A stretch of DNA of 34,747 nucleotides from an uncultured Clostridia bacterium (GTDB lineage: Bacteria; Bacillota; Clostridia; Peptostreptococcales; Anaerovoracaceae). Position 1 is the first letter of the stretch. The number at the start of each line of letters is the position of its first letter. The translations under genes and the position numbers were made by a program. Shown piece by piece: positions 5,230 to 27,303 of the stretch. Location: the NCBI GenBank assembly GCA_946541285.1, contig CAMNJG010000001.1, positions 1 through 34,747 of the forward strand, given 5' to 3'. Under the pieces are notes generated by a model. That model saw only the letters and a list, made by a program, of their open reading frames with translations. It was not told the origin of the DNA and ran no database searches.

Positions 5230-6030
5230 TCAGATCTTCAGGAACACAGGGGTGCGCTCCACAAAATAGCAGGTTTCCGTAAATCCTGCCGCTTTCAGGA
5301 TCTGTTCCAGCAACGGGAAATCCCTGCCGACATCCTCACTGACATGCGCGTCAGAACCGACAGTGATCAGCTTTCCGCCCAGCTCCCGGTAACGGCGGAT
5401 GACATCCGGATGCGGATTGGGAAAGCCCAGTCCCTTGCGGATACCGGCGGAGTTGACCTCCAGCGCGATATCATGGCGGATCAGCAGCTTCAGGATTTCG
5501 TCGATGATCTCCCCGTACCGGCGGAAGCTGTATTCCCCGGCCCCGTTCTGTCCGTAACGGACGACATAATCCAGGTGTCCCAGGGTATCCGCGTCATGGA
5601 AAGCCTGAAGGTTCTCATACGTCTCTTCAAAGTATTTCCGGAATACACCGGCATCTCCGTATTCCTCAAAGATTTCCGGATAATACGGATCCTTTTTTTC
5701 TACGAGATGCTGGGAACTGATCGCGTAGTCAAAGGGATACTTCTGCAGGAGTTCACGGTACCGGTCCCCCAGCTGCGGCTGCATTCCCAGTTCCACTCCC
5801 TTCAGGATCCGGATCCGGCTGCTGTAGCGCTCCTGGAGGGATGCGATTTCTTCCATATACTGATCCACATCATAGTCAAAAATCATCTCCGGGATCGGGA
5901 AATCCCAGTCGATATGATCCGTAAAGCACATCACCGGAAGACCGGTTTCCACCGCGCGCTTCACCTGGTTTTCCATCAGTTCCTGTGAATCAAAGGAGTA
6001 CTGACTGTGTAAATGGATATCCGCGAACAT
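5230..6030 (-). CDS. PHP-domain phosphoesterase (histidinol-phosphatase family)
   Basis: 266 aa. PHP metal-ligand motifs DIHLHSQYSFDS, FTDHID, GHLDY, EVNSAG, GSDAH. AAAGGAA RBS. Confidence 0.8.
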   Translation of the reverse strand: MFADIHLHSQYSFDSQELMENQVKRAVETGLPVMCFTDHIDWDFPIPEMIFDYDVDQYMEEIASLQERYSSRIRILKGVELGMQPQLGDRYRELLQKYPFDYAISSQHLVEKKDPYYPEIFEEYGDAGVFRKYFEETYENLQAFHDADTLGHLDYVVRYGQNGAGEYSFRRYGEIIDEILKLLIRHDIALEVNSAGIRKGLGFPNPHPDVIRRYRELGGKLITVGSDAHVSEDVGRDFPLLEQILKAAGFTETCYFVERTPVFLKI

Positions 6031-6114
6031 AGTTTTCCTTTCTTTTCTTCTGTGCTGTCACTCAGACTATCCCGGGCCGGACATCCCCGGCCGGTATCAT
6101 CATCCGCGATTCCC

Positions 6115-6159
6115 CAAAAAACAGCCCCGGAAGCAGGAACATGCCGCCGGGGAACTGTT
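6115..6159 (-). terminator. Rho-independent terminator ending the suf operon
   Basis: Minus strand CAGTTCCCCGG-N18-CCGGGGCTG stem followed by TTTTTT, starting ~17 nt after the sufU stop. Confidence 0.75.
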
Positions 6160-6175
6160 TTACCGTTTTGACTGA

Positions 6176-6646
6176 TCAGTCCTGATCGTCGTCTTTTTCA
6201 AAATTATGCTCATGTTCATGAGCTTCATCTTTAATGATTTCGTTGAACGTTCTCCAGCCAAGCTGCACACATTTGACACGCGCCGGCATGTGGGAAACAT
6301 TCTGGAGCGCGGCGGCTTCATCCAGGGACTCGATTTCTTCATCTGTCGCCTCGCCTTTGATCATGCGCATGAAAATATCCGCCAGCGCTTTTGCTTCGTC
6401 CTCTTTTTTACCGATGATCAGATCCAGCATCATGTCCGCTGAAGCCTGGGATACCGCGCATCCGCTTCCGTTAAACGACCCGTCCTCAATGATTCCGTCA
6501 TTCACCTTCAGCTGGAGCGTGATATCGTCTCCGCAGCTGGGATTGACTCCCCGGAGCTTCAGGTTCGCGTCCTCCAGGTCATGCTTGTGTGTCGGATGCA
6601 GATTGTGTTCGTTGACAATCTCCCGATACAGCTGCTTAAGATCCAT
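6176..6646 (-). CDS. sufU: SUF-system Fe-S cluster scaffold/sulfur acceptor SufU
   Basis: 156 aa. Motifs NPSCGDDITL, GSGCAVSQASADMM, RVKCVQL. Overlaps the sufS stop by 11 nt. Confidence 0.9.
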   Translation of the reverse strand: MDLKQLYREIVNEHNLHPTHKHDLEDANLKLRGVNPSCGDDITLQLKVNDGIIEDGSFNGSGCAVSQASADMMLDLIIGKKEDEAKALADIFMRMIKGEATDEEIESLDEAAALQNVSHMPARVKCVQLGWRTFNEIIKDEAHEHEHNFEKDDDQD

Positions 6647-16999: not shown

Positions 17000-19258
17000 C
17001 TATACTGTCAGTTTCTGCAGGCTGTCCAGCATCCGCATGATCAGGACCGTTCCTTCTGCTCTGTTCAGGATATTCAGCGGTCTTACGGTATTGTCCTCAT
17101 ACCCTTTCAGCAGTCCGTGTTCCTGCGCGTATACAAACCAGGTGACGGCATAATCCGCGATATCCGCAGTATCCGCGTAAGTCAGGGTGATCGGAGCAGT
17201 CTGAGGATCCTGCGGCAGCGGTCCTGCCGGAGGCTGTGCCGGCTGCTCTGATCCCGGAGCCGGCTCTGCCGGAGTCCCTGTCGGTGCTTCGACTGGCTGT
17301 CCGGACTCTGCCGGAGCGCCTGCCGGTGTTTCTGCCGGCTGTCCGGACTCCGCAGGAGTCTGTGGGTCAGACGGCTGTGCCGGTTCCGACGGTTCCGCAG
17401 TACCAGATGGCTCCTGTGACGCCGGATCCGACGATGCCGGAGCCGGCGCAGTGACCGGATCTGTTTCATCATCGACAACTGCTGTCAGATCATCGTCACT
17501 GGCTTTGGAAACAGTCTGCTGTGTGCCCGTATTTCCGTTTTCACCGGCCTGCTGTGGAGTTTCTCCGGAGGAAGTATCACTGCCGGATGCCGGTTCCTCT
17601 GCAGAAACCTGATCCTGTCCGGAGGAAGTGCTTCCGTTTCCGGCTCCTTCATTTCCGGCCGGATTTTCAGGCTGTGCCGGGTTGTCTTCTGTTGACGAAC
17701 CCGACGGACTGTCCGGATTTGCCGGGGATGTCTCACTGTCTTTCGGACCGGCTTTTTCCCCGGAAGGAGGTTCCTGCTGTTTCTGCTTCGCTTTTTCTTC
17801 CACAGAAGCCATATACCGTCCCATCATGACCAGCATGTCCTGACGGGTAATCTGCTGATCCGGAGCAAACTCTGTTTCACTGACACCTTTGACAATCCCG
17901 TTTTCCGCGGCCCATCTGACAGCACCCGCGAACCACGCATCCACCGGAACATCCACAAACGAACTCTCCTGTGGCGCGGATGTATCCGCACCGGCTGCCC
18001 TGGCAATCATCTGCACGGTCATCGCTCTTGTAAACGGCTGATCCGCTCCGAAAAGTACCGGCGTAAGGCCGTTCGTAATCCCTGCTTTTTTCGCGGCGGC
18101 TGCTTCTGCCAGGTACCAGGCGTCAGCGGGAATGTCTCCGTAGCTGTCCCCTTCGTACATCGCGTAAAGTTCAACCGGTTCACTGACCGTAAAAGTATAC
18201 ACGGAATCTTTGGAGAACAGATTGCCGTCGCTGTCATACCAGCCAAGGAAATCTGCCTTTTTTCCACCTTCCTGTGTAACCGGGGCGGTGATGACAGTTA
18301 CCTGCGAATCCGGATCAGCAGTCAGAGAATCTGAAGCAGTCCCGGAAGCCGAGGCATGCACTCCCACACTGACCTGTTTCCGGAAGGAGGCCGTCAGCCT
18401 CTGCTCTCTGTCAGCAGTCAGTGTATAAACAGGATCCGATGAGAGATAGTTCCAGTTTTCGTCATACCAGCATTCAAACGCGGAACCCGGATCCGGTACC
18501 GCCGTCAGCGTAACATTTTCGCCATAACGATATGCTCCGACACCGGTGACTTCCCCGTGTCCGGTTCCGGATACGGCCCAGGAGATTTCCAGGCGCCACG
18601 GATTCTTCGGGTCCGGATCGGTCGGATCCCAGTTTTTATTCGGAGAGGAAGAGACACTCTGCACTGCCCGCTGTGGTTTTCCCAGCGCTCCGGCCTCCGG
18701 GCTGTCATAGACGGTTACCAGTGTGCCGGTCGGACAGTTATCGTAAATCCACTTGGCATCAGCCGTCTGCAGACGGACACAGCCCAGAGACGCGTGATTT
18801 CCCAGCGCGTCGTACTCACTGCTGATCATTTTGTTTTTGCCTGCGGAGGTATAGCAGATGGAATGGAAGAGGATGCTCCCCTTGATCCGGGAGGCATACT
18901 GTCCATAGGTTCCGTCGACCATCAGACGCCAGGTATAACGGGAATCCGGCGTGGAAAAGGTTCCTGCCGGCGTCGCGTGACCACTTCTTCCACAGGAAGC
19001 GACCATGGCTTTTACCGGAACGGAATAATTGCCATCGTCCCCGACACCGTAGACGGTCACCGTATTCATCTGACGGTTGACCATGACATAATAGGGGCTT
19101 TTGCCGTTATAGGCGGTACTGACGGCCGCGATGCTGTCCGCCGCAAAGACTTCTGACGGTGAAAAAATCATTCCTGTACCGGTAAATACCGGGACCGCCA
19201 GCAGCATTGCCATGGACAGAACCAGCGTCAGGCTTTTTTTCGCAATATTTCTGATCAT
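17000..19258 (-). CDS. Secreted L,D-transpeptidase (YkuD) with InlB-B-like repeats, three SLH domains and a long P/E/S/G-rich linker
   Basis: 752 aa. Signal/TM N-terminus. YkuD catalytic motif HSICYTS...NHASLGCVRL. Two GxVTG..Y..G..V.L.A.P..G..F..W repeats. SLH-like segments DIPADAWY.., FVDVPVDAWF.. and ADIADYAVTW... Confidence 0.8.
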   Translation of the reverse strand: MIRNIAKKSLTLVLSMAMLLAVPVFTGTGMIFSPSEVFAADSIAAVSTAYNGKSPYYVMVNRQMNTVTVYGVGDDGNYSVPVKAMVASCGRSGHATPAGTFSTPDSRYTWRLMVDGTYGQYASRIKGSILFHSICYTSAGKNKMISSEYDALGNHASLGCVRLQTADAKWIYDNCPTGTLVTVYDSPEAGALGKPQRAVQSVSSSPNKNWDPTDPDPKNPWRLEISWAVSGTGHGEVTGVGAYRYGENVTLTAVPDPGSAFECWYDENWNYLSSDPVYTLTADREQRLTASFRKQVSVGVHASASGTASDSLTADPDSQVTVITAPVTQEGGKKADFLGWYDSDGNLFSKDSVYTFTVSEPVELYAMYEGDSYGDIPADAWYLAEAAAAKKAGITNGLTPVLFGADQPFTRAMTVQMIARAAGADTSAPQESSFVDVPVDAWFAGAVRWAAENGIVKGVSETEFAPDQQITRQDMLVMMGRYMASVEEKAKQKQQEPPSGEKAGPKDSETSPANPDSPSGSSTEDNPAQPENPAGNEGAGNGSTSSGQDQVSAEEPASGSDTSSGETPQQAGENGNTGTQQTVSKASDDDLTAVVDDETDPVTAPAPASSDPASQEPSGTAEPSEPAQPSDPQTPAESGQPAETPAGAPAESGQPVEAPTGTPAEPAPGSEQPAQPPAGPLPQDPQTAPITLTYADTADIADYAVTWFVYAQEHGLLKGYEDNTVRPLNILNRAEGTVLIMRMLDSLQKLTV
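17261..17356 (-). repeat. In-frame 42-nt tandem repeat (2.3 copies) inside the wall-protein linker
   Basis: GGCTGTCCGGACTC recurs at 17295 and 17337. Encodes PAESGQPAETPAGA / PAESGQPVEAPTGT / PAEP. Confidence 0.8.
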
Positions 19259-20179: not shown

Positions 20180-21007
20180 TCAGCCCAGCGCGGCGACGGC
20201 GTCTTCCACTACGCGGGAAATAATGTCTTCAAGATGATCTTCTTCCGGATCGCTCACACCCTCTGCCTGTGCCGCTGCCGCGGTTTCAATCATCATCAGG
20301 TACTCGATATTTCCCTTGGCGCCCGTCATCGGGGAATACGTCAGTCCATAGAACACAAATCCATTCTCCTGCGCGTAACCGATCGCTTTCCGGATGACTT
20401 CCCGGTGTACTGCAGGATCGCGGACAATCCCGCCTTTCCCCACCTGCTCTCTGCCTGCTTCAAACTGAGGTTTGATCAGACAGACCAGACAGGCGTTTTC
20501 CTTCATAAGCGCTGCCGCCCGCGGAAGGATCATACTGAGGGAAATAAACGAAACATCCACACTGGCGAAATCCAGCTTTTCGTCAATCATATCCGGTGTA
20601 AAATAGCGGAAATTGACTTTTTCCATATTGACGACGCGTTCATCGCACCGCAGCCTGTAATCCAGCTGCCCGTACCCGACATCAACCGAGTAGACCCTGC
20701 GCGCTCCCCGCTGCAGCATACAGTCCGTAAAGCCGCCTGTGGAGGCACCGATATCCATGGCGACACAACCGTCGAGGTTGATCACAAAGGTGTTCAGCGC
20801 CTTCTCCAGTTTCAGCCCTCCTCTGCCGACATAAGGACAGGTGTCGCCCCGGAGCTCGATCTCCGCGTCCTCACGGACCATCGTCCCTGCCTTATCACAG
20901 ATGGCGCCGCCGATATACACACGGCCCTCCATGATCGCGGCTTTCGCTCGTGTACGGTTATCAAAAAATCCTTTCTGTACCAGCAGTACATCCAGTCGTT
21001 CTTTCAA
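20180..21007 (-). CDS. tlyA: TlyA family rRNA (cytidine-2'-O)-methyltransferase
   Basis: 275 aa. N-terminal S4 domain RLDVLLVQKGFFDNRTRAKAAI. FtsJ-type SAM motif AMDIGASTGGFTDC. TTG start with AGGAG 10 nt upstream. Confidence 0.88.
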   Translation of the reverse strand: MKERLDVLLVQKGFFDNRTRAKAAIMEGRVYIGGAICDKAGTMVREDAEIELRGDTCPYVGRGGLKLEKALNTFVINLDGCVAMDIGASTGGFTDCMLQRGARRVYSVDVGYGQLDYRLRCDERVVNMEKVNFRYFTPDMIDEKLDFASVDVSFISLSMILPRAAALMKENACLVCLIKPQFEAGREQVGKGGIVRDPAVHREVIRKAIGYAQENGFVFYGLTYSPMTGAKGNIEYLMMIETAAAAQAEGVSDPEEDHLEDIISRVVEDAVAALG

Positions 21008-21030
21008 TGTCTTCTTCTCCTGTTACAGGA

Positions 21031-22926
21031 TCACTGATCCTTTTTCTGAATCACTTCGATCTTACCGGCAATACTCTCCGCATCGAGGCCGTAAGCCTTC
21101 ATGAGCTCTTCTCTGCTCCCATGAGGAACAAACGCGTCCGGCCAGCCCATTTTACTGAAACTGACTTTTTCTGACCTGAGCAGATCTTCAATCAGACTGC
21201 CGTAACCGCCTGTCACCACATTATCTTCTACCGTCACAATCAGTCCTGTCTCCTGCGCGGCCCTGCGGTAAACCTGACGGTCCCGTCCGGACAGAGGTCT
21301 GACGATCTCCGCGTCGATCACGGTACATTCGATGCCCTTCTGTGCCAGCAGTTCCGACACCTCCAGGCAGACTTTCGTCATACTTCCGCAGCCGGCCAGT
21401 GTTACGTCACTGCCGGTCCGGAGGATTCTCGCGTGAGGACGCTCTTTTTTCTCCGCGTACTCCGTCAGTTCCGGGTACATGGACAGGTCCGCCGCCTCTC
21501 CTCTCGGATAACGGATCGCGACCGGTCCATCCATCTCCAGCGCATACTCCATCATCATCCGCAGACGTGATTCGTCAGACGGCGCCAGTATGGTCAGGTT
21601 TGGCATATGGCTCATATAGGAAATGTCAAAAATTCCCTGATGCGTCTCTCCGTCCGCGCCGACAACCCCGGCACGATCCAGGCAGAATACCACCGGAAGC
21701 TTCTGCATACAGACATCGATCAGCATCTGGTCGTAGGCCCTCTGCATAAAAGTCGAATAAATCGCCACAAAAGGTCTTTTGCCGCTGGTCGCCATGCCTG
21801 CCGCGAAGGTCACCGCGTGTTCCTCCGCGATCCCCACATCAAAGGTACGCTCCGGAAATTCTCCGGCAAAGCCGGCCAGGCCGGTTCCTTCAATCATGGC
21901 GGCACTGACTGCGACAATCCGTTCATCCCTGCGTGCCATTTCCCGGAGTTTCTTTCCGAAAACAGCGGAATAATCCGGTTTTTCGGATTTTTTCAGTGCG
22001 ACTCCCAGTTCCCTGTCAAACGGTCCGATCCCATGGAAACGATCCGGATGACGCTCCGCCGGACGGTAGCCTTTTCCTTTTTTTGTCACACAGTGAATAA
22101 TGACCGGACCATTCATCTCCCGGGCATCTTCAAAGACACTGATCAGATCTTCAAGATTATGGCCATCGACCGGCCCCAGATAGGTCAGCCCCAGTTCTTC
22201 AAAGACAACTCCCGGTACCAGTGTATACTTCACTGCGTCCTTAATCGCGCCGATACCATGTACCAGGGAATTCCCCACCAGAGGGATATCCCCCAGTTTA
22301 TCCTTGACACGGTCCTTCGCCCCGATATACCGGTCAGAAGACCGCAGTCCACTCAGATGCTGGGACAGACTTCCCCGGTTCGGTGAAATGGACATACCAT
22401 TGTCATTCAGGATAATCAGCAGACGCCCCTTCCGGAAACCGGCATTGTTCAGTGCTTCATAAACCATACCGCCCGTCATGGCACCGTCCCCGATCACCGC
22501 GATGACATGATAATTGTCTCCATTCAGATCCCTGGCTGCCGCCATCCCGAGCGCGGCGGAAATGGAATTACTGCTGTGTCCGGTATCAAAGGTATCATAG
22601 ATGCTCTCTGACCGTTTCGGAAAACCGGACAGTCCTCCATACTGCCGGAGGGTTCCCATACGGCTGCCGCGTCCGGTCAGCATTTTATGGACATAGGACT
22701 GATGTCCGACATCCCAGACAATCCTGTCCCGCGGCGCGTCGAACACTCTGTGCAGAGCCACCGTCAGCTCCACAACTCCCAGATTGGACGCCAGGTGGCC
22801 TCCGCAGGCCGACACACTTTCAATCAGCTCCGCCCGGATCCCGTCACAAAGCAGATCCAGTTCCCGGACTGACAGATCTTTCAGATCTGATGGATAAAAA
22901 CCCTCTTCTACACGTACATCTTTCAT
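21031..22926 (-). CDS. dxs: 1-deoxy-D-xylulose-5-phosphate synthase
   Basis: 631 aa. GHQSYVHKMLTGR and TPP motif GDGAMTGGMVYEALNNAG. ATGA overlap with the upstream gene. Confidence 0.95.
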   Translation of the reverse strand: MKDVRVEEGFYPSDLKDLSVRELDLLCDGIRAELIESVSACGGHLASNLGVVELTVALHRVFDAPRDRIVWDVGHQSYVHKMLTGRGSRMGTLRQYGGLSGFPKRSESIYDTFDTGHSSNSISAALGMAAARDLNGDNYHVIAVIGDGAMTGGMVYEALNNAGFRKGRLLIILNDNGMSISPNRGSLSQHLSGLRSSDRYIGAKDRVKDKLGDIPLVGNSLVHGIGAIKDAVKYTLVPGVVFEELGLTYLGPVDGHNLEDLISVFEDAREMNGPVIIHCVTKKGKGYRPAERHPDRFHGIGPFDRELGVALKKSEKPDYSAVFGKKLREMARRDERIVAVSAAMIEGTGLAGFAGEFPERTFDVGIAEEHAVTFAAGMATSGKRPFVAIYSTFMQRAYDQMLIDVCMQKLPVVFCLDRAGVVGADGETHQGIFDISYMSHMPNLTILAPSDESRLRMMMEYALEMDGPVAIRYPRGEAADLSMYPELTEYAEKKERPHARILRTGSDVTLAGCGSMTKVCLEVSELLAQKGIECTVIDAEIVRPLSGRDRQVYRRAAQETGLIVTVEDNVVTGGYGSLIEDLLRSEKVSFSKMGWPDAFVPHGSREELMKAYGLDAESIAGKIEVIQKKDQ

Positions 22927-23504
22927 TTTCTGCGCTCCGTAAAGACTGCCAGCAGTCTTCCGATAAAAGTAATGATCATTTTTGACCGGGACATGGCGAA
23001 CTCCTTGCCGATGGCTTTTCCTCCGATCGTCAGCGACGCGATCAGTCCACTGAGCAGGAGGGAAAGAAGCGCGTAATCCAGAATTCCGGCATTCGAAAGC
23101 TGTGTCACGATATATGCCGCCGAGGTTCCGCTGATGATTCCACAGGTATCCCCGACTACATCATTGCAGAGACTGGATACTTTCGGCGCGTTCCGGATCA
23201 GGGTCAGAGAGCTTCTGGCTCCCCGCACTCTGTGAGACGCCATGGAATGGAAAGATGCCGGATCCACGACTGCCACCGCGACACCAACAATGTCAAAAAT
23301 GATACCGATCACAACAATAGCGATTAATATGATAAAAGCCGCCAGTATATCTGATCTGCGCATGAGAAGATCTGATAACAGATTCATGGACACAGATAAG
23401 AAAAAAGCGCACACTGTTATACTGATAATCCATGCGCGCTGTGACTTCGATTTCTCTTTATTTTTTTCTCTTTCCTTTTCTTTCTCGCCTTTTTTCTTTT
23501 TCAT
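22923..23504 (-). CDS. oapA: Four-TM membrane protein in the position of OLE-associated protein A
   Basis: 193 aa (~21 kDa). K/E-rich N-terminus followed by about four hydrophobic helices. Sits directly downstream of the 639-nt non-coding gap and is translationally coupled to dxs, as described for oapA. Confidence 0.65.
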   Translation of the reverse strand: MKKKKGEKEKEREKNKEKSKSQRAWIISITVCAFFLSVSMNLLSDLLMRRSDILAAFIILIAIVVIGIIFDIVGVAVAVVDPASFHSMASHRVRGARSSLTLIRNAPKVSSLCNDVVGDTCGIISGTSAAYIVTQLSNAGILDYALLSLLLSGLIASLTIGGKAIGKEFAMSRSKMIITFIGRLLAVFTERRK

Positions 23505-23509
23505 TTAAA

Positions 23510-24140
23510 AATTACACAGCCGTTTTGATAATACAATAAAACAAGTGGCGGGCACCCGTGTTAATCTTCCGGCTTAGGTCCGGTCAGATTTCCTGGAAGG
23601 GCTTCTGAGACGTTGCCGTTTCAGATGTTTCCGTTTAAAGCCTTAACATCACGCGCTGTTGCCATGACGCGCTACCGGATTGCCACTCAGTCCGGACTGC
23701 AATCCACAGGTACCATACAGCCTAGGGGATTTCCCCGGCAGTACTGACTACTCTTATCCTTTTTTGCAACCAGTGTTTCGAGCAGCAATGGCTGACAGGA
23801 ACACGGCCGCTGCTCCTGCGCCTGGACCTGCTGTCCCCACCAGTCACTTCAAGGCAGGCTACGCTCGAACGGGATCCTCTGCTTCACAGCAGCTGTCACC
23901 CCGCTCCAGGTTCATTACTCACAGTCATATGGACATATGAAAGTGAGCCTCCACAGTATCCAGGGTTTACGTCCATATGCCATTATGAATCGCCCCGAAT
24001 ACCTTTTTCTCCCGGTAAATGCCCCCAACTGGGCGTCGGCAGCAAATACGAGGAGCTTCATCGATGTGCCCTTTGACGGATTTTTAGCCCCGTCTTCAGA
24101 ATAATCAGATTCTGACTAGGATACTGCGCCACACAGGTCT
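23510..24140 (-). ncRNA. OLE (ornate, large, extremophilic) RNA candidate; boundaries approximate
   Basis: 639-nt gap with no RBS-preceded ORF and GC-balanced composition. Many stems: 24097-24102/24109-24114, 24075-24079/24090-24094, 23926-23934/23971-23979, 23780-23786/23809-23815, GGGGAAAUCCCC at 23725-23736. Exact xseA-xseB-ispA-[gap]-oapA-dxs-tlyA synteny. Confidence 0.7.
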
Positions 24141-24143
24141 ATC

Positions 24144-25085
24144 TTATGATATTCTGTTCAGCAGGTCAAGCGCCATCTGCTCAAGAAATTCCAGATAACC
24201 GGCGGAATCCTCTGCCGCGTCCGGATTGTTCCTGTTTCCTTTCCGCACCGTTTCCAGGGCGAGACGGGCATTCGCGGTCGCCTGTTCCGCTTTCTCCCTG
24301 GACAGCTCCAGTCCGTACACTGACGGGTAGGTCAGTTTTCCCAGCTGTTCATCCATCCCGGTATTCTTCCCGAGGCTGGCGGCGTCACCTGTCACATCCA
24401 GGATATCATCGACAATCTGAAACGCGATCCCGATCTGTTCCCCGTAAACCGTAAAAGCCTCCAGCATCGCCGGTTCGGCCGCCCCCAGGATCGCTCCGGC
24501 TCTCACGGACGCGCGGAGCAGCGCCCCCGTCTTGTATCTGTGGATATACAGGAGTTTCCGCGCGTCATCTGCCTGGATATGCTCCGGACGGATATCGGCA
24601 GCCTGTCCCGCCGCCATCCCTCTGACACCGGACGCCTCAGAAATCTCACGGGCCGCGCGGATGCAGCGCAGCTGATACGCCGAACCCGGTTCACAGGATT
24701 CCGTCGTCTCCAGCATGACATCCATCGCGGAACTGAACAGCGCGTCACCTGCCAGGATCGCCATATCGTCGCCGAATACTTTATGGTTGGTTGGCCGTCC
24801 CCGGCGGAGGTCATCATTATCCATCGACGGATGATCATCATGGATCAGCGAAAAGGTATGAATGTATTCCATCGCGCAGGCAAACGGCATCGCCTCCCGC
24901 AGTCCGCCTCCGGCGGCCAGGCAGGAAGCCAGTAACAGAACCGGGCGGATCCGTTTGCCTCCCGCTTCAAGACTGTACTTCATGGAATCGTACAGCAGCG
25001 CGCTTTCCGGAGCTGTCACGGGAAGAAACGGGATCAGATGATCTTCGACTTCCTGTTTCAGCTGCTGATATTTTTCACTGAACAT
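24144..25085 (-). CDS. ispA: Farnesyl/geranyl diphosphate synthase
   Basis: FARM LIHDDHPSMDNDDLRRG and SARM QIVDDILD. The ATG at 25085 (MFSEKYQQL) has GGGAGG upstream and overlaps the xseB stop. The track start at 25124 is rejected. Confidence 0.9.
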   Translation of the reverse strand: MFSEKYQQLKQEVEDHLIPFLPVTAPESALLYDSMKYSLEAGGKRIRPVLLLASCLAAGGGLREAMPFACAMEYIHTFSLIHDDHPSMDNDDLRRGRPTNHKVFGDDMAILAGDALFSSAMDVMLETTESCEPGSAYQLRCIRAAREISEASGVRGMAAGQAADIRPEHIQADDARKLLYIHRYKTGALLRASVRAGAILGAAEPAMLEAFTVYGEQIGIAFQIVDDILDVTGDAASLGKNTGMDEQLGKLTYPSVYGLELSREKAEQATANARLALETVRKGNRNNPDAAEDSAGYLEFLEQMALDLLNRIS

Positions 25086-25323
25086 CTCCGTTTTCCTCCC
25101 TGATACTGTCACTCTGCCGATCATAGACCTGGATCAGCTGCCGGGCTTCCTCAAGGATGCCGGAGCAGATCCTGTAATATTCCAGTCCGGATTTGTACCG
25201 GTCAATCGCGTCGCTGAGACTGACATTCGGGTCATTCAGTTCCTCCGCGCACTGGCTGAGTTTTCTGTAAGCGCTTTCAAAATCCAGATCTTTTGTTTCT
25301 TTCTTTACCGTTTTATTTGCCAT
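25075..25323 (-). CDS. xseB: Exodeoxyribonuclease VII small subunit
   Basis: 82 aa helical protein. FESAYRKLSQCAEEL...LSDAIDRYKSG is typical of XseB. Overlaps the xseA stop. Confidence 0.88.
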   Translation of the reverse strand: MANKTVKKETKDLDFESAYRKLSQCAEELNDPNVSLSDAIDRYKSGLEYYRICSGILEEARQLIQVYDRQSDSIREENGDVQ

Positions 25324-26596
25324 CTGCCTCCTCCATGATTTCCGTAACCCGGGTCCATACGGAACCGTCCCGCAGACGAATCTTCAGTCCGCTTCCTTCC
25401 TGAAGTCCGGTTGTACCGGTCACCGCCCGTCCTGACGGATCCGTGACAATTGCGTAGCCCCGCTCGACGATCCTGTCCGGATTCCCTGCTTCCAGCAGGA
25501 GCTTCTGTTTCTCGAGATTTTCAGAACAGATCCATATTTTTTCCTGTATGGTCCGTTCCATATCATCCGACAGGCGTTCCAGTCCGGCTGCATATTTTTC
25601 CGTTCTGGAAGCCATGAAGCTTCCAAGAAACGAAGGCGTATATCGCTTCAGGGCTTCCGATTTCAGGGAATACTGATGCTGCAGGGAACGTATCAGCGAC
25701 TGCGGCGAATAGCGTTCTGCCGCGTTTTTTCTGGTCTGGTAGATTTTATCGAGTTTTTCACGAATCCCGTGCTCGAAAAGTTCTGTCACCTGCTGACGGA
25801 GCACCTGGACATCCGGGACCGCCATCACTGCCGCGGCTGTCGGCGTCTCTGCCCGGATATCCGCGGCAAAATCCGCGATGGTAAAATCCGTTTCGTGGCC
25901 GACTGCCGAAATCACCGGAATCTCTGAATCGTAAATCGCCCGGGCGACCGGTTCTTCATTGAAAGCCCACAGGTCTTCCAGGGATCCTCCGCCTCTTCCT
26001 GTAATGATCACATCCGTCTCCGGAAATTTCCGGTTGACCTCCCGGATCGCTGTGGAAATTTCCCCGGCCGCCTCCGGTCCCTGTACCAGCACCGGATAGA
26101 TAAGAATATCTGTAATCTGATTCCTGCTCCGGATGATTTTCAGCATATCCCGGAGTGCCGCGCCAGTATCGCTGGTGATGATACAGATTTTCCGCGGAAA
26201 TTCCGGGAGTTTTTTCTTTCGCTCCCTGCTGAAAATCCCTTCCGCGCTGAGCTTCGCGTACAGTGCCCGGTAAGCTGCCATCAGCGCGCCCTCACCAAAC
26301 GCTTCGACAGACTCCGCTGTCAGGGAGTACGTTCCGCCTTTTTCATAAACCGTCACTCGCCCTGTCGCCTTTACTTCCATCCCATCCTGCAGACGATAGC
26401 GCAGCCGCGACGCGTTCCTTTCCCACATCTGGCAGCGGATGCTCGCTTTGTCATCCTTCAGTGTGAAAAATACGGATCCGGAGCCGTGATACTTCAGGTT
26501 GGAAATTTCTCCGATCACGCCGACATTCATCATAATCGGATCGGTCTTAAAAATATTCGCGATATAACTGGTTAATCTGGATACTTTTACATCCAT
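25313..26596 (-). CDS. xseA: Exodeoxyribonuclease VII large subunit
   Basis: 427 aa from the ATG at 26596 (MDVKVSRLTSYI), which has a GGAGGA RBS. OB-fold N-terminus. ITGRGGGSLEDLWAFNEE motif. The track ORF extends 102 aa further into the aldolase gene. Confidence 0.9.
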   Translation of the reverse strand: MDVKVSRLTSYIANIFKTDPIMMNVGVIGEISNLKYHGSGSVFFTLKDDKASIRCQMWERNASRLRYRLQDGMEVKATGRVTVYEKGGTYSLTAESVEAFGEGALMAAYRALYAKLSAEGIFSRERKKKLPEFPRKICIITSDTGAALRDMLKIIRSRNQITDILIYPVLVQGPEAAGEISTAIREVNRKFPETDVIITGRGGGSLEDLWAFNEEPVARAIYDSEIPVISAVGHETDFTIADFAADIRAETPTAAAVMAVPDVQVLRQQVTELFEHGIREKLDKIYQTRKNAAERYSPQSLIRSLQHQYSLKSEALKRYTPSFLGSFMASRTEKYAAGLERLSDDMERTIQEKIWICSENLEKQKLLLEAGNPDRIVERGYAIVTDPSGRAVTGTTGLQEGSGLKIRLRDGSVWTRVTEIMEEADGK

Positions 26597-26634
26597 GCTT
26601 CCATCCTCCGGAAATTCACACCATTCCCTAGGGA

Positions 26635-27303
26635 TTACAGAACGATGCCGTAACGTTCCCTCCGGCTTTCCACCCCTGCTTTTTCTTCTTCGCTGAGCAG
26701 ATGTGCCTTTGGTCCAAGTCCGGTCAGGATCAGCATCTTCGCGTAATACTCCAGCGTTTCCAGCCGGAAGTACGCCCGTTCCATGGAATCCCCCCAGGTC
26801 ACCGCTCCGTGGTTTGCCAGCAGGACTGCCGCGTGTCCCTGCAGATAAGGAACAATGCTGTCCGCGAGTTCGGTTGTTCCCGGCAGGGCAAACGGCGCGC
26901 ACGGGACGGTTCCCAGGTTCAGCACGGCCTCATTGACCACTGCCTTATCCAGATCCATTCTGGCACAGGCAAACGCCGTGGAAAGAGGAGGATGCGCATG
27001 AACCACCGCGTTGACATCCGGCCGGTTCCGGTATACTGCCAGGTGGAGGTTGATTTCGGAGGAAATCCCCAGTTCTGTCTGCTTTTCCAGAATCCGGCCT
27101 TCCGCATCCACCTTCACCAGCATATCCGCCGTCATAAATCCCTTGGATACACCGGAAGGCGTCACCCAGAATCCGCCGTCGGCTGTCCGGCAGCTGATAT
27201 TGCCGTCATTGGCCGCGCAGTAATCCTTGTCATACATTCTTCTGCCGGCTTCCAGTATGTTCTCTTTCGCCTGTGTGTCATCCGGTAATTTTGTATTAAA
27301 CAT
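26635..27303 (-). CDS. Class II aldolase/adducin-family protein (FucA/Ald2/DrdA-like)
   Basis: 222 aa. NDGNISCR, VVHAHPP, LLANHGAVTWG. 8-nt overlap with the mtnA stop. Confidence 0.8.
   Translation of the reverse strand: MFNTKLPDDTQAKENILEAGRRMYDKDYCAANDGNISCRTADGGFWVTPSGVSKGFMTADMLVKVDAEGRILEKQTELGISSEINLHLAVYRNRPDVNAVVHAHPPLSTAFACARMDLDKAVVNEAVLNLGTVPCAPFALPGTTELADSIVPYLQGHAAVLLANHGAVTWGDSMERAYFRLETLEYYAKMLILTGLGPKAHLLSEEEKAGVESRRERYGIVL

What the first reader, a model, noticed from the sequence alone, without database searches (positions are those of the whole stretch)
23505..24143. 639-nt stem-rich non-coding gap in the exact OLE RNA position (ispA-[gap]-oapA-dxs-tlyA)
Seen in the sequence: the largest non-coding stretch in the window. 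It is GC-balanced rather than AT-rich, and its only ORF is an opposite-strand 86-aa TTG ORF without an RBS. It is packed with local and long-range complementarity, for example a 9-bp stem at 23926-23934/23971-23979, a 7-bp stem at 23780-23786/23809-23815 and GGGGAAAUCCCC at 23725-23736. Established knowledge: OLE RNA (~600 nt, Breaker laboratory, anaerobic and extremophilic Firmicutes) lies between ispA and the gene for a ~21-kDa four-TM OLE-associated protein (OapA). That gene sits inside an xseA-xseB-ispA-OLE-oapA-dxs-tlyA operon, which is the gene order found here. Inference: this is an OLE/OapA ribonucleoprotein locus. OLE is one of the largest bacterial non-coding RNAs and its biochemical function is still unresolved. 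A copy in what looks like a non-extremophile Clostridia genome is worth characterising.
Basis: partly seen in the sequence, partly recalled or inferred. Interest (0 to 1): 0.85.

Follow-up and report, generated by a model that had tools for sequence, protein, structure and literature searches.

The report
OLE RNA gene beside oapA
The 639-base gap holds a complete copy of OLE RNA, a well-described large structured bacterial RNA that works at the cell membrane with the protein OapA encoded just downstream, so it is a textbook example rather than a discovery.

Summary
The Rfam OLE model (RF01071) matches window 24148-23529 on the minus strand end to end, at 394 bits against a threshold of 50 (E 1.5e-112). 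The gene order is xseA-xseB-ispA-OLE-oapA-dxs-tlyA.

The 193-aa downstream protein fits the published description of OapA. It is 20.9 kDa, has an invariant DxxxD motif and a CNNM/CorB-like membrane fold, and its homologues sit directly downstream of an OLE gene in 75 of 80 genomes sampled.

An alignment of 68 OLE genes shows strong covariation for the Rfam helices. It also supports the long-range helices P1, P2 and P3/P3.1, which Rfam does not annotate. The loop and motif sequences reported to mediate dimerisation, OapA binding and OapB binding are all present. A proximal promoter-like site lies just upstream.

This copy has a short P7, no P11 hairpin and an A-rich J5/6. All three fall within, or close to, the variation seen among relatives.

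The host is an uncultured member of the Clostridia. OLE is already reported in about 2,800 Bacillota genomes, including gut anaerobes, so a non-extremophile host is not surprising.

Verdict: real, correctly identified, already known, low interest.

The parts
23529..24148 (-). Full-length match to Rfam RF01071 (OLE RNA), model positions 1-616 of 616.
   Evidence: 394.2 bits (gathering score 50), E 1.5e-112, G+C 0.52. The same-species contig L081 scores 394.5 bits.
23545..24132 (-). Core RNA from the 5' arm of P1 to the 3' arm of P1 (588 nt). This is OLE positions 17-604, where OLE position p equals window coordinate 24149 - p.
   Evidence: The median for 68 OLE genes is 614 nt, range 538-687.
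24141..24169 (-). Promoter-like site TTGACC-17 nt-TAAGAT. The -10 element overlaps the ispA stop codon and ends 8 nt before P1.
   Evidence: One search found the site, but the number of sites in the region is no more than chance. One search shows a -35/(TG)-10 pair at the same place, 7-15 nt upstream of P1, in most of the 67 related loci. An active proximal promoter is known in B. halodurans (PMC3413148). Activity here is inferred.
24127..24132 (-). P1, 5' arm (GUGGCG). It pairs with 23545-23550 (CGCCAC).
   Evidence: helix 1: 96% of cells paired, and 4 of 6 pairs have changes on both sides. Not in the Rfam structure line.
23545..23550 (-). P1, 3' arm, followed by a U-rich tail (UUGUUUUAUUGUAUUA).
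   Evidence: One search lists a weak terminator-like hairpin plus T run at 23559-23541.
24116..24126 (-). P2, 5' arm (CAG-uau-CCUAG). It contains the CUAG palindrome, one of the two mapped OapA contact regions. It pairs with 23718-23725.
   Evidence: helices 2-3: 100% paired. Pair 29/428 covaries (C-G 35, U-A 17, U-G 16). The OapA site is taken from PMC12265935.
24098..24114 (-). P3 (3 bp) plus P3.1 (11 bp), 5' arm. It pairs with 23739-23754. This is the helix proposed in the literature to cross the membrane.
   Evidence: helices 4-5: 12 of 14 pairs have changes on both sides. The 14 bp here compares with a typical total of about 12 bp (PMC12265935).
24075..24094 (-). P4 hairpin with the A-rich loop CUAAAAAU, a dimer contact in the cryo-EM models.
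   Evidence: (loop invariant in 68 sequences), helix 6.
24056..24074 (-). P4a/J4a-5 segment AAAGGGCACAUCGAUGAAG. It holds the CAUCGAUG palindrome (second OapA contact region) and the bulged strand of the OapC k-turn (C86, bulge GAU, then GA).
   Evidence: nearly invariant. Roles are taken from PMC12265935 and PMC9723947.
24009..24055 (-). P5/P5.1 with the loop GCCCA.
   Evidence: helix 7 (92% paired, 12 of 20 pairs compensatory). The loop is invariant.
23955..24003 (-). P6/P6.1 with the loop AAUGGCAU. Its GGC is complementary to the GCC of the P5.1 loop, which is the intermolecular kissing contact.
   Evidence: helices 8-9. The loop is invariant.
23918..23947 (-). P7, short form (about 30 nt; 15 model positions deleted).
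   Evidence: (32 nt in the measured slot against a median of 61, range 16-104). One search shows the outer stem CUCAC/GUGAG changed to CUUGU/ACAAG in L092, a compensatory change.
23864..23909 (-). P8, with a 16-nt insertion that forms an extra terminal hairpin (CUGCUGUGAAGCAG).
   Evidence: (46 nt against a median of 37). One search shows GGGG/CCC changed to GGAA/UUCC in L089, a compensatory change.
23757..23855 (-). P9 long arm with the palindromic loop CGGCCG, a self-kissing dimer contact.
   Evidence: (100 nt against a median of 99). The GGCC core is present in 65 of 68; CGGCCG occurs in 9, UGGCCA in 27.
23726..23736 (-).
   Evidence: helix 19 (99% paired).
23551..23715 (-). The 3' domain, P12-P15. 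It includes P13 (23652-23672) with a GCAA tetraloop and bulged nucleotides (the OapB site), and P14.1 with a second GCAA tetraloop. The P11 hairpin that usually precedes it is absent (GUAUG only).
   Evidence: helices 20-26 (P12 has 10 of 10 pairs compensatory and 98% paired); the P13 loop is GNRA in 67 of 68, and P11 is absent in 8 of 68. G555-C563 becomes A-U in this clade.
22923..23504 (-). oapA: a 193-aa, 20.9-kDa basic membrane protein with DxxxD at D115-D119. Its stop codon overlaps the dxs start (ATGA).
24144..25124 (-). ispA (farnesyl diphosphate synthase). Gene callers start it at 25085 (313 aa).
20180..22926 (-). dxs (22926-21031) and tlyA (21007-20180), the downstream operon partners.
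   Evidence: The same order is seen in 60 or more related loci.
25075..26902 (-). xseB (25323-25075) and xseA (from about 26596 to 25313), the upstream operon partners.

Best explanation
Window 24132-23545 (minus strand) is a functional gene for a full-length OLE (ornate, large, extremophilic) RNA. The gene just downstream encodes its membrane partner OapA. Both lie inside the usual xseA-xseB-ispA-ole-oapA-dxs-tlyA cluster of an uncultured member of the Clostridia.

Shown here: family membership, a conserved fold with covariation, the presence of every mapped interaction motif, and an OapA-type partner gene.

Inferred from work on H. halodurans and two Clostridium species:
- The RNA is made from the proximal promoter that overlaps the end of ispA, and also by read-through of the operon.
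- It is a stable RNA of roughly 590 nt.
- It forms a homodimer through the P4 A-rich loops, the P5.1/P6.1 kissing loops and the palindromic P9 loop.
- It is held at the membrane by OapA, a protein related to CNNM/MpfA divalent-cation transporters, which contacts the palindromes at P2 and P4a on either side of P3/P3.1.
- It recruits OapB at the P13 GNRA loop.

The most likely job of the particle is to sense stress (excess Mg2+, cold, short-chain alcohols, poor carbon sources) and adjust OapA-dependent ion handling and linked processes. The exact chemistry is unknown for the whole class.
For: - Rfam: RF01071 at 394.2 bits, model 1-616 of 616, and the only Rfam family found in the window.
- Conserved nucleotides: the window agrees with 177 of the 188 columns that are at least 97% conserved in 67 other OLE genes.
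- Covariation on 68 sequences: 77.6% of cells paired against 68.0% in shuffles (0 of 500 shuffles as high) and 40-55% when partners are slid. 128 of 176 pairs have changes on both sides. P1, P2 and P3/P3.1 are supported although Rfam does not annotate them.
- Clade-specific compensatory changes: in P7, in P8, and at the 555/563 pair.
- Stability: MFE z-score -4.8.
- Motifs: P4 CUAAAAAU, P5.1 GCCCA, P6.1 AAUGGCAU, P9 CGGCCG, P13 GCAA with a bulge, and the CUAG and CAUCGAUG palindromes are all present.
- Partner protein: homologues of the 193-aa protein lie directly downstream of an OLE sequence in 75 of 80 genomes, and 3 of the 5 exceptions have too little upstream DNA to hold one. Rfam confirms OLE in 9 of 11 tested loci, including cultured Clostridium oceanicum, Ruminiclostridium and Acetobacterium.
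- OapA features: DxxxD invariant; AlphaFold model at pLDDT 78.8 whose six best PDB matches are all CNNM/CorB/CorC membrane domains; 20.9 kDa, pI 10.1.
- Synteny is conserved.
- A promoter is conserved in position across loci and is experimentally active in B. halodurans (PMC3413148).
- Eight metagenome contigs of the same species carry the RNA at 99.7-100% identity. The only differences are one substitution in an unpaired base and one indel in the 3' tail.
Against: - No expression, processing, localisation or binding data exist for this organism.
- The score of 394 bits is lower than in cultured Clostridia (471-540 bits). The reasons are a short P7, a missing P11, an inserted hairpin in P8 and 6-11 departures at highly conserved positions.
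- J5/6 is AAAAA instead of the usual UUAA. This removes two pairs of the non-canonical helix of the OapC k-turn, so OapC binding is uncertain.
- oapB, oapC and the bS21 gene are not in the window, and the rest of the genome is not available.
- oapA has no obvious Shine-Dalgarno sequence.
- The transmembrane model and the ion-handling role are hypotheses in the literature, not established facts.
Confidence: 0.96

Rival explanations
1. The region is mainly a cis-acting leader (a long structured 5' UTR) that controls translation or stability of oapA-dxs-tlyA, rather than a free-standing RNA.
For: OLE and oapA are 40 nt apart on the same strand, with only a weak terminator-like hairpin and U-tail between them. 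oapA lacks a Shine-Dalgarno sequence. Co-transcription with neighbouring genes is documented in B. halodurans (PMC3413148).
Against: In B. halodurans, OLE accumulates as a single, very stable and highly abundant species from its own promoter (PMC3413148). It binds OapA, OapB and OapC in trans (PMC12265935). A 590-nt element with about 25 helices, conserved across the phylum, is far beyond any known leader. The two roles are not mutually exclusive.
Confidence: 0.03
2. The region is a decaying OLE pseudogene that no longer functions.
For: The bit score is lower than in cultured Clostridia. P7 is truncated, P11 is lost, and several highly conserved positions are altered.
Against: The match is full length. 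94% of the highly conserved positions are kept. The changes in P7, P8 and at 555/563 are compensatory and shared by relatives whose OapA is 71-85% identical. Short P7 and absent P11 recur in other lineages. oapA is intact with all invariant residues. The sequence is nearly identical across eight metagenome contigs.
Confidence: 0.01
3. The gap encodes a protein, namely the 86-aa TTG ORF on the plus strand.
For: An 86-aa open frame lies at 23680-23940.
Against: The frame has stop codons in L089, L090, L092 and L001 and in more distant OLE genes. Its apparent conservation simply follows the conserved RNA. It has a TTG start and no ribosome-binding site. Stop-free stretches of about 120 aa are typical of G+C-balanced OLE genes (median 120.5).
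Confidence: 0.003

Closest known systems
Full-length OLE RNA (Rfam RF01071), as studied in Halalkalibacterium halodurans, Clostridium acetobutylicum and C. botulinum
   Same: The Rfam match covers all 616 model positions (394 bits). P1-P10 and P12-P15 are present with covariation. The dimer-contact loops (P4, P5.1/P6.1, P9), the OapA palindromes and the P13 GNRA OapB site are all present. The RNA lies between ispA and oapA in the xseA...tlyA cluster and has a proximal promoter.
   Different: P7 is about half the usual length. There is no P11 hairpin. P8 carries an extra terminal hairpin. J5/6 is AAAAA instead of UUAA. A few lineage-specific substitutions occur at positions conserved at 97% or more, and one pair of them (G555-C563 to A-U) is compensatory. 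No experimental data exist for this host.
OLE variant 1 (TANB77-type) and variant 2 (RF39-type), from Fernando and Breaker 2024 (PMC11332333)
   Same: Like variant 1, this copy has a shortened P7 and comes from an uncultured, probably gut- or rumen-associated member of the Bacillota.
   Different: Variant 1 also shortens P8 and P9 and often lacks the P13 OapB site. Variant 2 lacks P7 and P8 altogether. Here P8 (46 nt) and P9 (100 nt) are at or above the median, and P13 has a GCAA loop. It therefore belongs to the full-length class.
OapA (OLE-associated protein A) and its distant relatives, the CNNM-domain Mg2+ transporters MpfA, CorB and CorC
   Same: A membrane protein of about 21 kDa encoded immediately after ole, with an invariant DxxxD motif. 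The best structural matches are 7M1T and 7M1U (MtCorB) and 7CFF and 7CFG (CorC membrane domain). Fernando and Breaker reported the same top match for H. halodurans OapA (PMC11332333).
   Different: Unlike MpfA and CorB it has no CBS or CorC_HlyC domains. It barely touches the Pfam CNNM model (E 0.78). Only three segments pass a simple hydropathy cut-off; the DxxxD helix is amphipathic. It was not compared directly with the H. halodurans sequence.
Other large ornate bacterial RNAs (ROOL, GOLLD, raiA/ModT)
   Same: Large, highly structured non-coding RNAs of unknown chemistry. ROOL, GOLLD and OLE all form homo-oligomers in cryo-EM (PMC12286853).
   Different: No Rfam match to any of them in the window. 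None of them is linked to a dedicated membrane protein.

Membership tests
OLE RNA (RF01071) | Covariance-model score above the curated gathering threshold over the full model. | tested here: met
   394.2 bits against 50, model 1-616 of 616, E 1.5e-112.
OLE RNA (RF01071) | About 600 nt long, with roughly a quarter of positions almost invariant. | tested here: met
   588 nt from P1 to P1. The window agrees at 177 of 188 columns that are at least 97% conserved in 67 other OLE genes.
OLE RNA (RF01071) | Conserved multi-helix secondary structure supported by covariation. | tested here: met
   135 of 151 projected Rfam pairs are canonical in the window. On 68 sequences, 77.6% of cells are paired against 68.0% in shuffles (0 of 500) and 40-55% when slid, and 128 of 176 pairs have double changes. 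The variable helices P7, P8, distal P9 and P14 are poorly aligned by MAFFT and score low.
OLE RNA (RF01071) | Long-range helices P1, P2 and P3/P3.1 that close domain 1. P3 plus P3.1 is typically about 12 bp. | tested here: met
   P1 6 bp, P2 3+5 bp, P3 3 bp plus P3.1 11 bp, all canonical in the window and covarying (helices 1-5).
OLE RNA (RF01071) | Gene lies immediately upstream of oapA on the same strand, usually within a cluster containing ispA, dxs, tlyA and xseAB. | tested here: met
   The same arrangement is seen in related loci.
OLE RNA (RF01071) | Dimer-contact motifs: A-rich P4 loop, complementary P5.1 and P6.1 loops, palindromic P9 loop. | tested here: met
   CUAAAAAU, GCCCA with AAUGGCAU, and CGGCCG are present. 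Dimerisation itself is not testable with these tools.
OLE RNA (RF01071) | OapB site: GNRA tetraloop and bulged nucleotide in P13. | tested here: met
   GCAA loop. The stem has bulged U/C or A/U depending on register. Binding is not testable.
OLE RNA (RF01071) | Alternative k-turn around P5 for OapC: C-G pair, 3-nt bulge, sheared G.A pairs. | tested here: inconclusive
   C86, the GAU bulge, the GA and a partner G146 are present. J5/6 is AAAAA (AAA in the nearest relatives) instead of UUAA, so two pairs of the non-canonical helix are lost.
OLE RNA (RF01071) | Host is an anaerobic or extremophilic member of the Bacillota. | tested here: inconclusive
   The nearest relatives of OapA and Dxs are Clostridia, Clostridiales or Firmicutes genomes assembled from metagenomes, at 55-64% identity. 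The gene content fits a Gram-positive anaerobe: SLH domain, SUF system.
OLE RNA (RF01071) | Abundant, stable transcript of about 600 nt that localises to the membrane. | not testable with these tools
   Only a promoter-like site conserved in position is available.
OapA | Encoded directly downstream of ole. | tested here: met
   The ATG lies 40 nt after the 3' arm of P1. 75 of 80 homologue loci have OLE directly upstream.
OapA | Protein of about 21 kDa with four predicted transmembrane helices. | tested here: met
   20.9 kDa. The AlphaFold model has long helices at 5-50, 53-79, 106-139 and 144-172. Only three pass a Kyte-Doolittle cut-off of 1.6.
OapA | DxxxD motif, which is absent from CNNM domains. 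| tested here: met
   D115-V-V-G-D119. Both aspartates are invariant in 56 homologues. The criterion comes from PMC11332333.
OapA | CNNM-like fold without CBS or CorC domains. | tested here: met
   The six best Foldseek PDB hits are 7M1T, 7M1U, 7CFF and 7CFG chains (probability 0.99-1.00, TM-score 0.43-0.62). Pfam CNNM gives only E 0.78, and no other domain is found.
OapA | Sequence homology to the experimentally studied H. halodurans OapA; RNA binding and membrane recruitment. | not tested
Homology is inferred through the family that is linked to OLE in cultured Clostridium, Ruminiclostridium and Acetobacterium species.

The most novel reading that the evidence does not exclude
The window and its nearest relatives (L089, L090, L092, L001) may represent a distinct, naturally trimmed lineage of full-length OLE. 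It combines a short P7, no P11, an A-rich J5/6 that may no longer form the OapC k-turn, and compensated changes at otherwise near-invariant positions. If so, it would help define which parts and partners of the particle are dispensable.
Probability: 0.15. Interest if true: 0.3.

Novelty: already known. Interest (0 to 1): 0.15.

Why it matters
As a class, OLE RNA is one of the most intriguing bacterial non-coding RNAs. It is large, ancient-looking, possibly spans the membrane, and its biochemical function is still unknown. This particular copy adds little. It is found at once by the curated Rfam model, sits in the canonical locus, and carries the canonical motifs.

Its modest value is comparative. 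It is one more divergent sequence from an uncultured lineage of the Clostridia. It shows that P11 and most of P7 can be lost while the P1-P3 scaffold, the dimer contacts and the OapA and OapB sites stay fixed. For annotation, the gap should be labelled ole and the 193-aa "hypothetical protein" should be labelled oapA.

Tried and rejected
- Pfam and NCBIfam give no family for the 193-aa protein at default thresholds. At E up to 10, Pfam CNNM appears only at E 0.78.
- A profile search of PDB sequences found nothing useful. The relationship to CNNM showed up only by fold comparison.
- Cluster look-up returned no names or organisms.
- A literature search for the sample labels found nothing.
- The Dxs homologue search gave no close named relative, so the host could not be placed below class level.
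- Population variation among eight same-species contigs amounted to two differences, too few to say anything about structure.
- A covariance model of my own was not built because the 400-column limit is below the length of OLE. The covariation count therefore rests on a MAFFT alignment, which misaligns the length-variable helices P7, P8, distal P9 and P14 and understates their pairing.
- The antisense-ORF reading was considered and rejected.
- The sigma-70 scan alone is not significant (9 sites against 6.3 +/- 2.6 expected). Only the positional conservation across loci gives the promoter any weight.

Full report
OBSERVATION. The gap is real and at the stated coordinates. The ispA stop codon is at 24144-24146 and the oapA start at 23504, which leaves 639 nt (23505-24143) without a gene. 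Gene callers left the same stretch empty on eight independent metagenome contigs of the same species. From the ORF list it is the largest intergenic gap in the window. G+C is 0.52, similar to the flanks. The 86-aa TTG ORF on the plus strand exists, and so does a 55-aa ORF. The 86-aa frame is interrupted by stop codons in the nearest relatives, so it is not coding. Only GGGGAAAUCCCC (hairpin P10) belongs to the conserved fold. The 9-bp and 7-bp matches are alternative pairings between or within other helices. On its own the RNA strand folds much better than shuffled controls: -241.4 against -207.3 +/- 7.1 kcal/mol, z = -4.8.

IDENTITY OF THE RNA. A scan of the whole window against Rfam 15 gives a single hit: RF01071, OLE, at 24148-23529 on the minus strand. 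It scores 394.2 bits against a gathering score of 50 (E 1.5e-112) and covers model positions 1-616 of 616. I projected the Rfam consensus structure onto the window sequence. Of 151 pairs, 135 are canonical.

RELATED LOCI. I used an alignment of homologues of the downstream protein to fetch 80 loci from species-representative genomes. A search with the window RNA found an OLE-like sequence directly upstream of the protein gene, on the same strand, in 75 of them. Three of the five exceptions have too little upstream DNA to hold one. Rfam confirmed OLE in 9 of 11 loci tested, including cultured Clostridium oceanicum (540 bits), Ruminiclostridium cellobioparum (532) and Acetobacterium paludosum (471). 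The order (xseA-xseB-)ispA-OLE-oapA-dxs-tlyA recurs in these loci.

COVARIATION. Sixty-eight OLE genes were aligned. I counted the Rfam pairs together with three long-range helices that I read from the alignment and that the literature calls P1, P2 and P3/P3.1. In total 77.6% of cells form standard pairs, against 68.0% in shuffles (0 of 500 as high) and 40-55% when partners are slid by 1-3 columns. 128 of 176 pairs have changes on both sides. Individual helices:
- P1 (OLE 17-22 with 599-604): 96% paired.
- P2: 100% paired, with a clean C-G / U-A / U-G switch at 29/428.
- P3 plus P3.1: 14 bp in the window, and 12 of 14 pairs covary.
- P12: compensatory changes at 10 of 10 pairs.
- The length-variable helices P7, P8, distal P9 and P14 score poorly. 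MAFFT does not align them by structure, so this is a limit of the method, not evidence against them.

HOW THIS COPY COMPARES. The window agrees with 177 of the 188 columns that are at least 97% conserved in the other 67 genes. All four published dimer-contact motifs are present: the P4 loop CUAAAAAU, the P5.1 loop GCCCA facing the P6.1 loop AAUGGCAU, and the palindromic P9 loop CGGCCG. So are the two palindromes mapped as OapA contacts (CUAG in P2, CAUCGAUG in P4a). P13 ends in a GCAA tetraloop with bulged nucleotides, which is the OapB site, and P14.1 ends in a second GCAA (roles from PMC12265935 and PMC7936274).

The differences are these:
- P7 occupies 32 nt in the measured slot, against a median of 61 (range 16-104).
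- The P11 hairpin is absent, as in 8 of 68 sequences.
- P8 carries a 16-nt extra hairpin.
- J5/6 reads AAAAA rather than UUAA. This keeps the C-G pair, the GAU bulge and the first G.A of the OapC k-turn, but loses two pairs of its non-canonical helix (PMC9723947).

P8 and P9 are at or above the median length and the P13 site is intact. The copy therefore belongs to the full-length class, not to variant 1 or 2 of Fernando and Breaker (PMC11332333).

Relatives whose OapA is 85, 81 and 71% identical (L089, L090, L092) and L001 share the short P7. They show compensatory changes: in the P7 outer stem (CUCAC/GUGAG to CUUGU/ACAAG), in P8 (GGGG/CCC to GGAA/UUCC), and at two otherwise near-invariant positions (G555-C563 to A-U). 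This argues against a decaying pseudogene. Eight same-species contigs differ only at one unpaired base and in the 3' U-tail.

THE PARTNER PROTEIN. The 193-aa product has no Pfam family. It has 1,893 homologues, almost all unnamed, and a few are tagged CNNM or CorB. It is 20.9 kDa with pI 10.1, has a lysine-rich N-terminus, and carries a DVVGD motif whose two aspartates are invariant in 56 homologues. DxxxD is the published hallmark that separates OapA from CNNM domains (PMC11332333). An AlphaFold model (pLDDT 78.8) consists of four long helices plus short ones. Its six best PDB matches are all CNNM-type membrane domains: MtCorB 7M1T and 7M1U, and CorC 7CFF and 7CFG. This is the same top match reported for H. 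halodurans OapA. I could not align it directly with that protein.

EXPRESSION SIGNALS. A TTGACC-17-TAAGAT site lies at 24169-24141, overlaps the ispA stop codon and ends 8 nt before P1. The scan on its own is not above chance. However, a -35/(TG)-10 pair sits at the same position, 7-15 nt before P1, in most of the related loci. A proximal promoter is experimentally active in B. halodurans (PMC3413148). The 3' arm of P1 is followed by a U-rich tail. oapA starts 40 nt later, and its stop codon overlaps the dxs start.

MECHANISM. Nothing in this locus departs from the model built on H. halodurans and the two Clostridium cryo-EM structures. In that model a stable RNA of about 590 nt dimerises. OapA, a relative of Mg2+ transporters, anchors it at the membrane, with P3/P3.1 proposed to cross the bilayer. 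OapB, OapC and bS21 decorate it. It is needed for tolerance to excess Mg2+, cold, short-chain alcohols and poor carbon sources (PMC12265935, PMC10898510). For this organism every one of these steps is inferred by homology. The underlying chemistry is unknown for the whole class.

HOST AND NOVELTY. The window otherwise carries housekeeping genes of a Gram-positive anaerobe: a SUF system, ABC and MATE transporters, an L,D-transpeptidase with SLH domains, and methionine-salvage genes. The nearest named relatives of Dxs and OapA are Firmicutes and Clostridiales genomes assembled from metagenomes, at 55-64% identity. Sample labels hint at ruminant gut metagenomes, but that is a guess. OLE has been reported in 2,822 Bacillota genomes, including uncultured gut clades (PMC11332333). 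A non-extremophile host is therefore expected, not surprising.

VERDICT. It is an ordinary instance of a known system.

Noticed in passing
Alignment A2, columns 142-164 (for example L036, L005, L006, L011, L016, L037, L077); corresponds to window 24004-24008: About 25 of 68 OLE genes, mostly from Oscillibacter, Oscillospiraceae and Faecousia genomes assembled from metagenomes, carry an extra G+C-rich hairpin of about 20-25 nt in J5/6. This is the strand that forms the OapC k-turn in H. halodurans. I did not find this variation described in the papers I read.
   Followed up: no
L057 (Bacilli genome assembled from a metagenome), OapA-like gene at 6001-6558: An OapA-like gene (38% identity) has 6 kb of upstream DNA but no OLE by nhmmer or by Rfam at the gathering threshold. 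Either it is an oapA relative that is not next to ole, or the OLE there is too divergent to detect.
   Followed up: partly
Window 24141-24169 (-), and 45 nt upstream of P1 in 67 loci: A sigma-70-type promoter (TTG..., often TGnTAnAAT) is conserved in position 7-15 nt upstream of P1 across OLE genes. In the window its -10 element overlaps the ispA stop codon. This agrees with the proximal promoter shown in B. halodurans.
   Followed up: yes
Window 23505-23520 and 22923-22926: oapA has no Shine-Dalgarno-like purine run before its ATG (UGUGUAAUUUUUAAAUG). Its stop codon overlaps the dxs start (ATGA), which suggests translational coupling.
   Followed up: no
Window OLE positions 555 and 563 (window 23594 and 23586): Two positions that are G and C in 66 of 67 other OLE genes are A and U in the window, L001, L089, L090 and L092. 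This is a compensatory change. It implies a base pair (probably closing P15) that the Rfam structure line does not annotate.
   Followed up: partly
L068, L078, L061, L042 (Agathobaculum-type loci), alignment A2 columns 360-435: P8 is expanded by roughly 60-100 nt of G+C-rich sequence in these genomes, which shows how tolerant this arm is to insertions.
   Followed up: no
Window 25313-26902 (-): The longest ORF for xseA (529 aa, GTG start) runs about 100 codons upstream into the class II aldolase gene. Gene callers on sister contigs use a 427-aa product, so the long ORF is an artefact of ORF listing.
   Followed up: partly
Window 17000-19258 (-): A 752-aa surface protein combines a YkuD L,D-transpeptidase domain, an InlB-type repeat and SLH domains, joined by a long low-complexity linker rich in Pro, Glu, Ser and Ala.
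   Followed up: no
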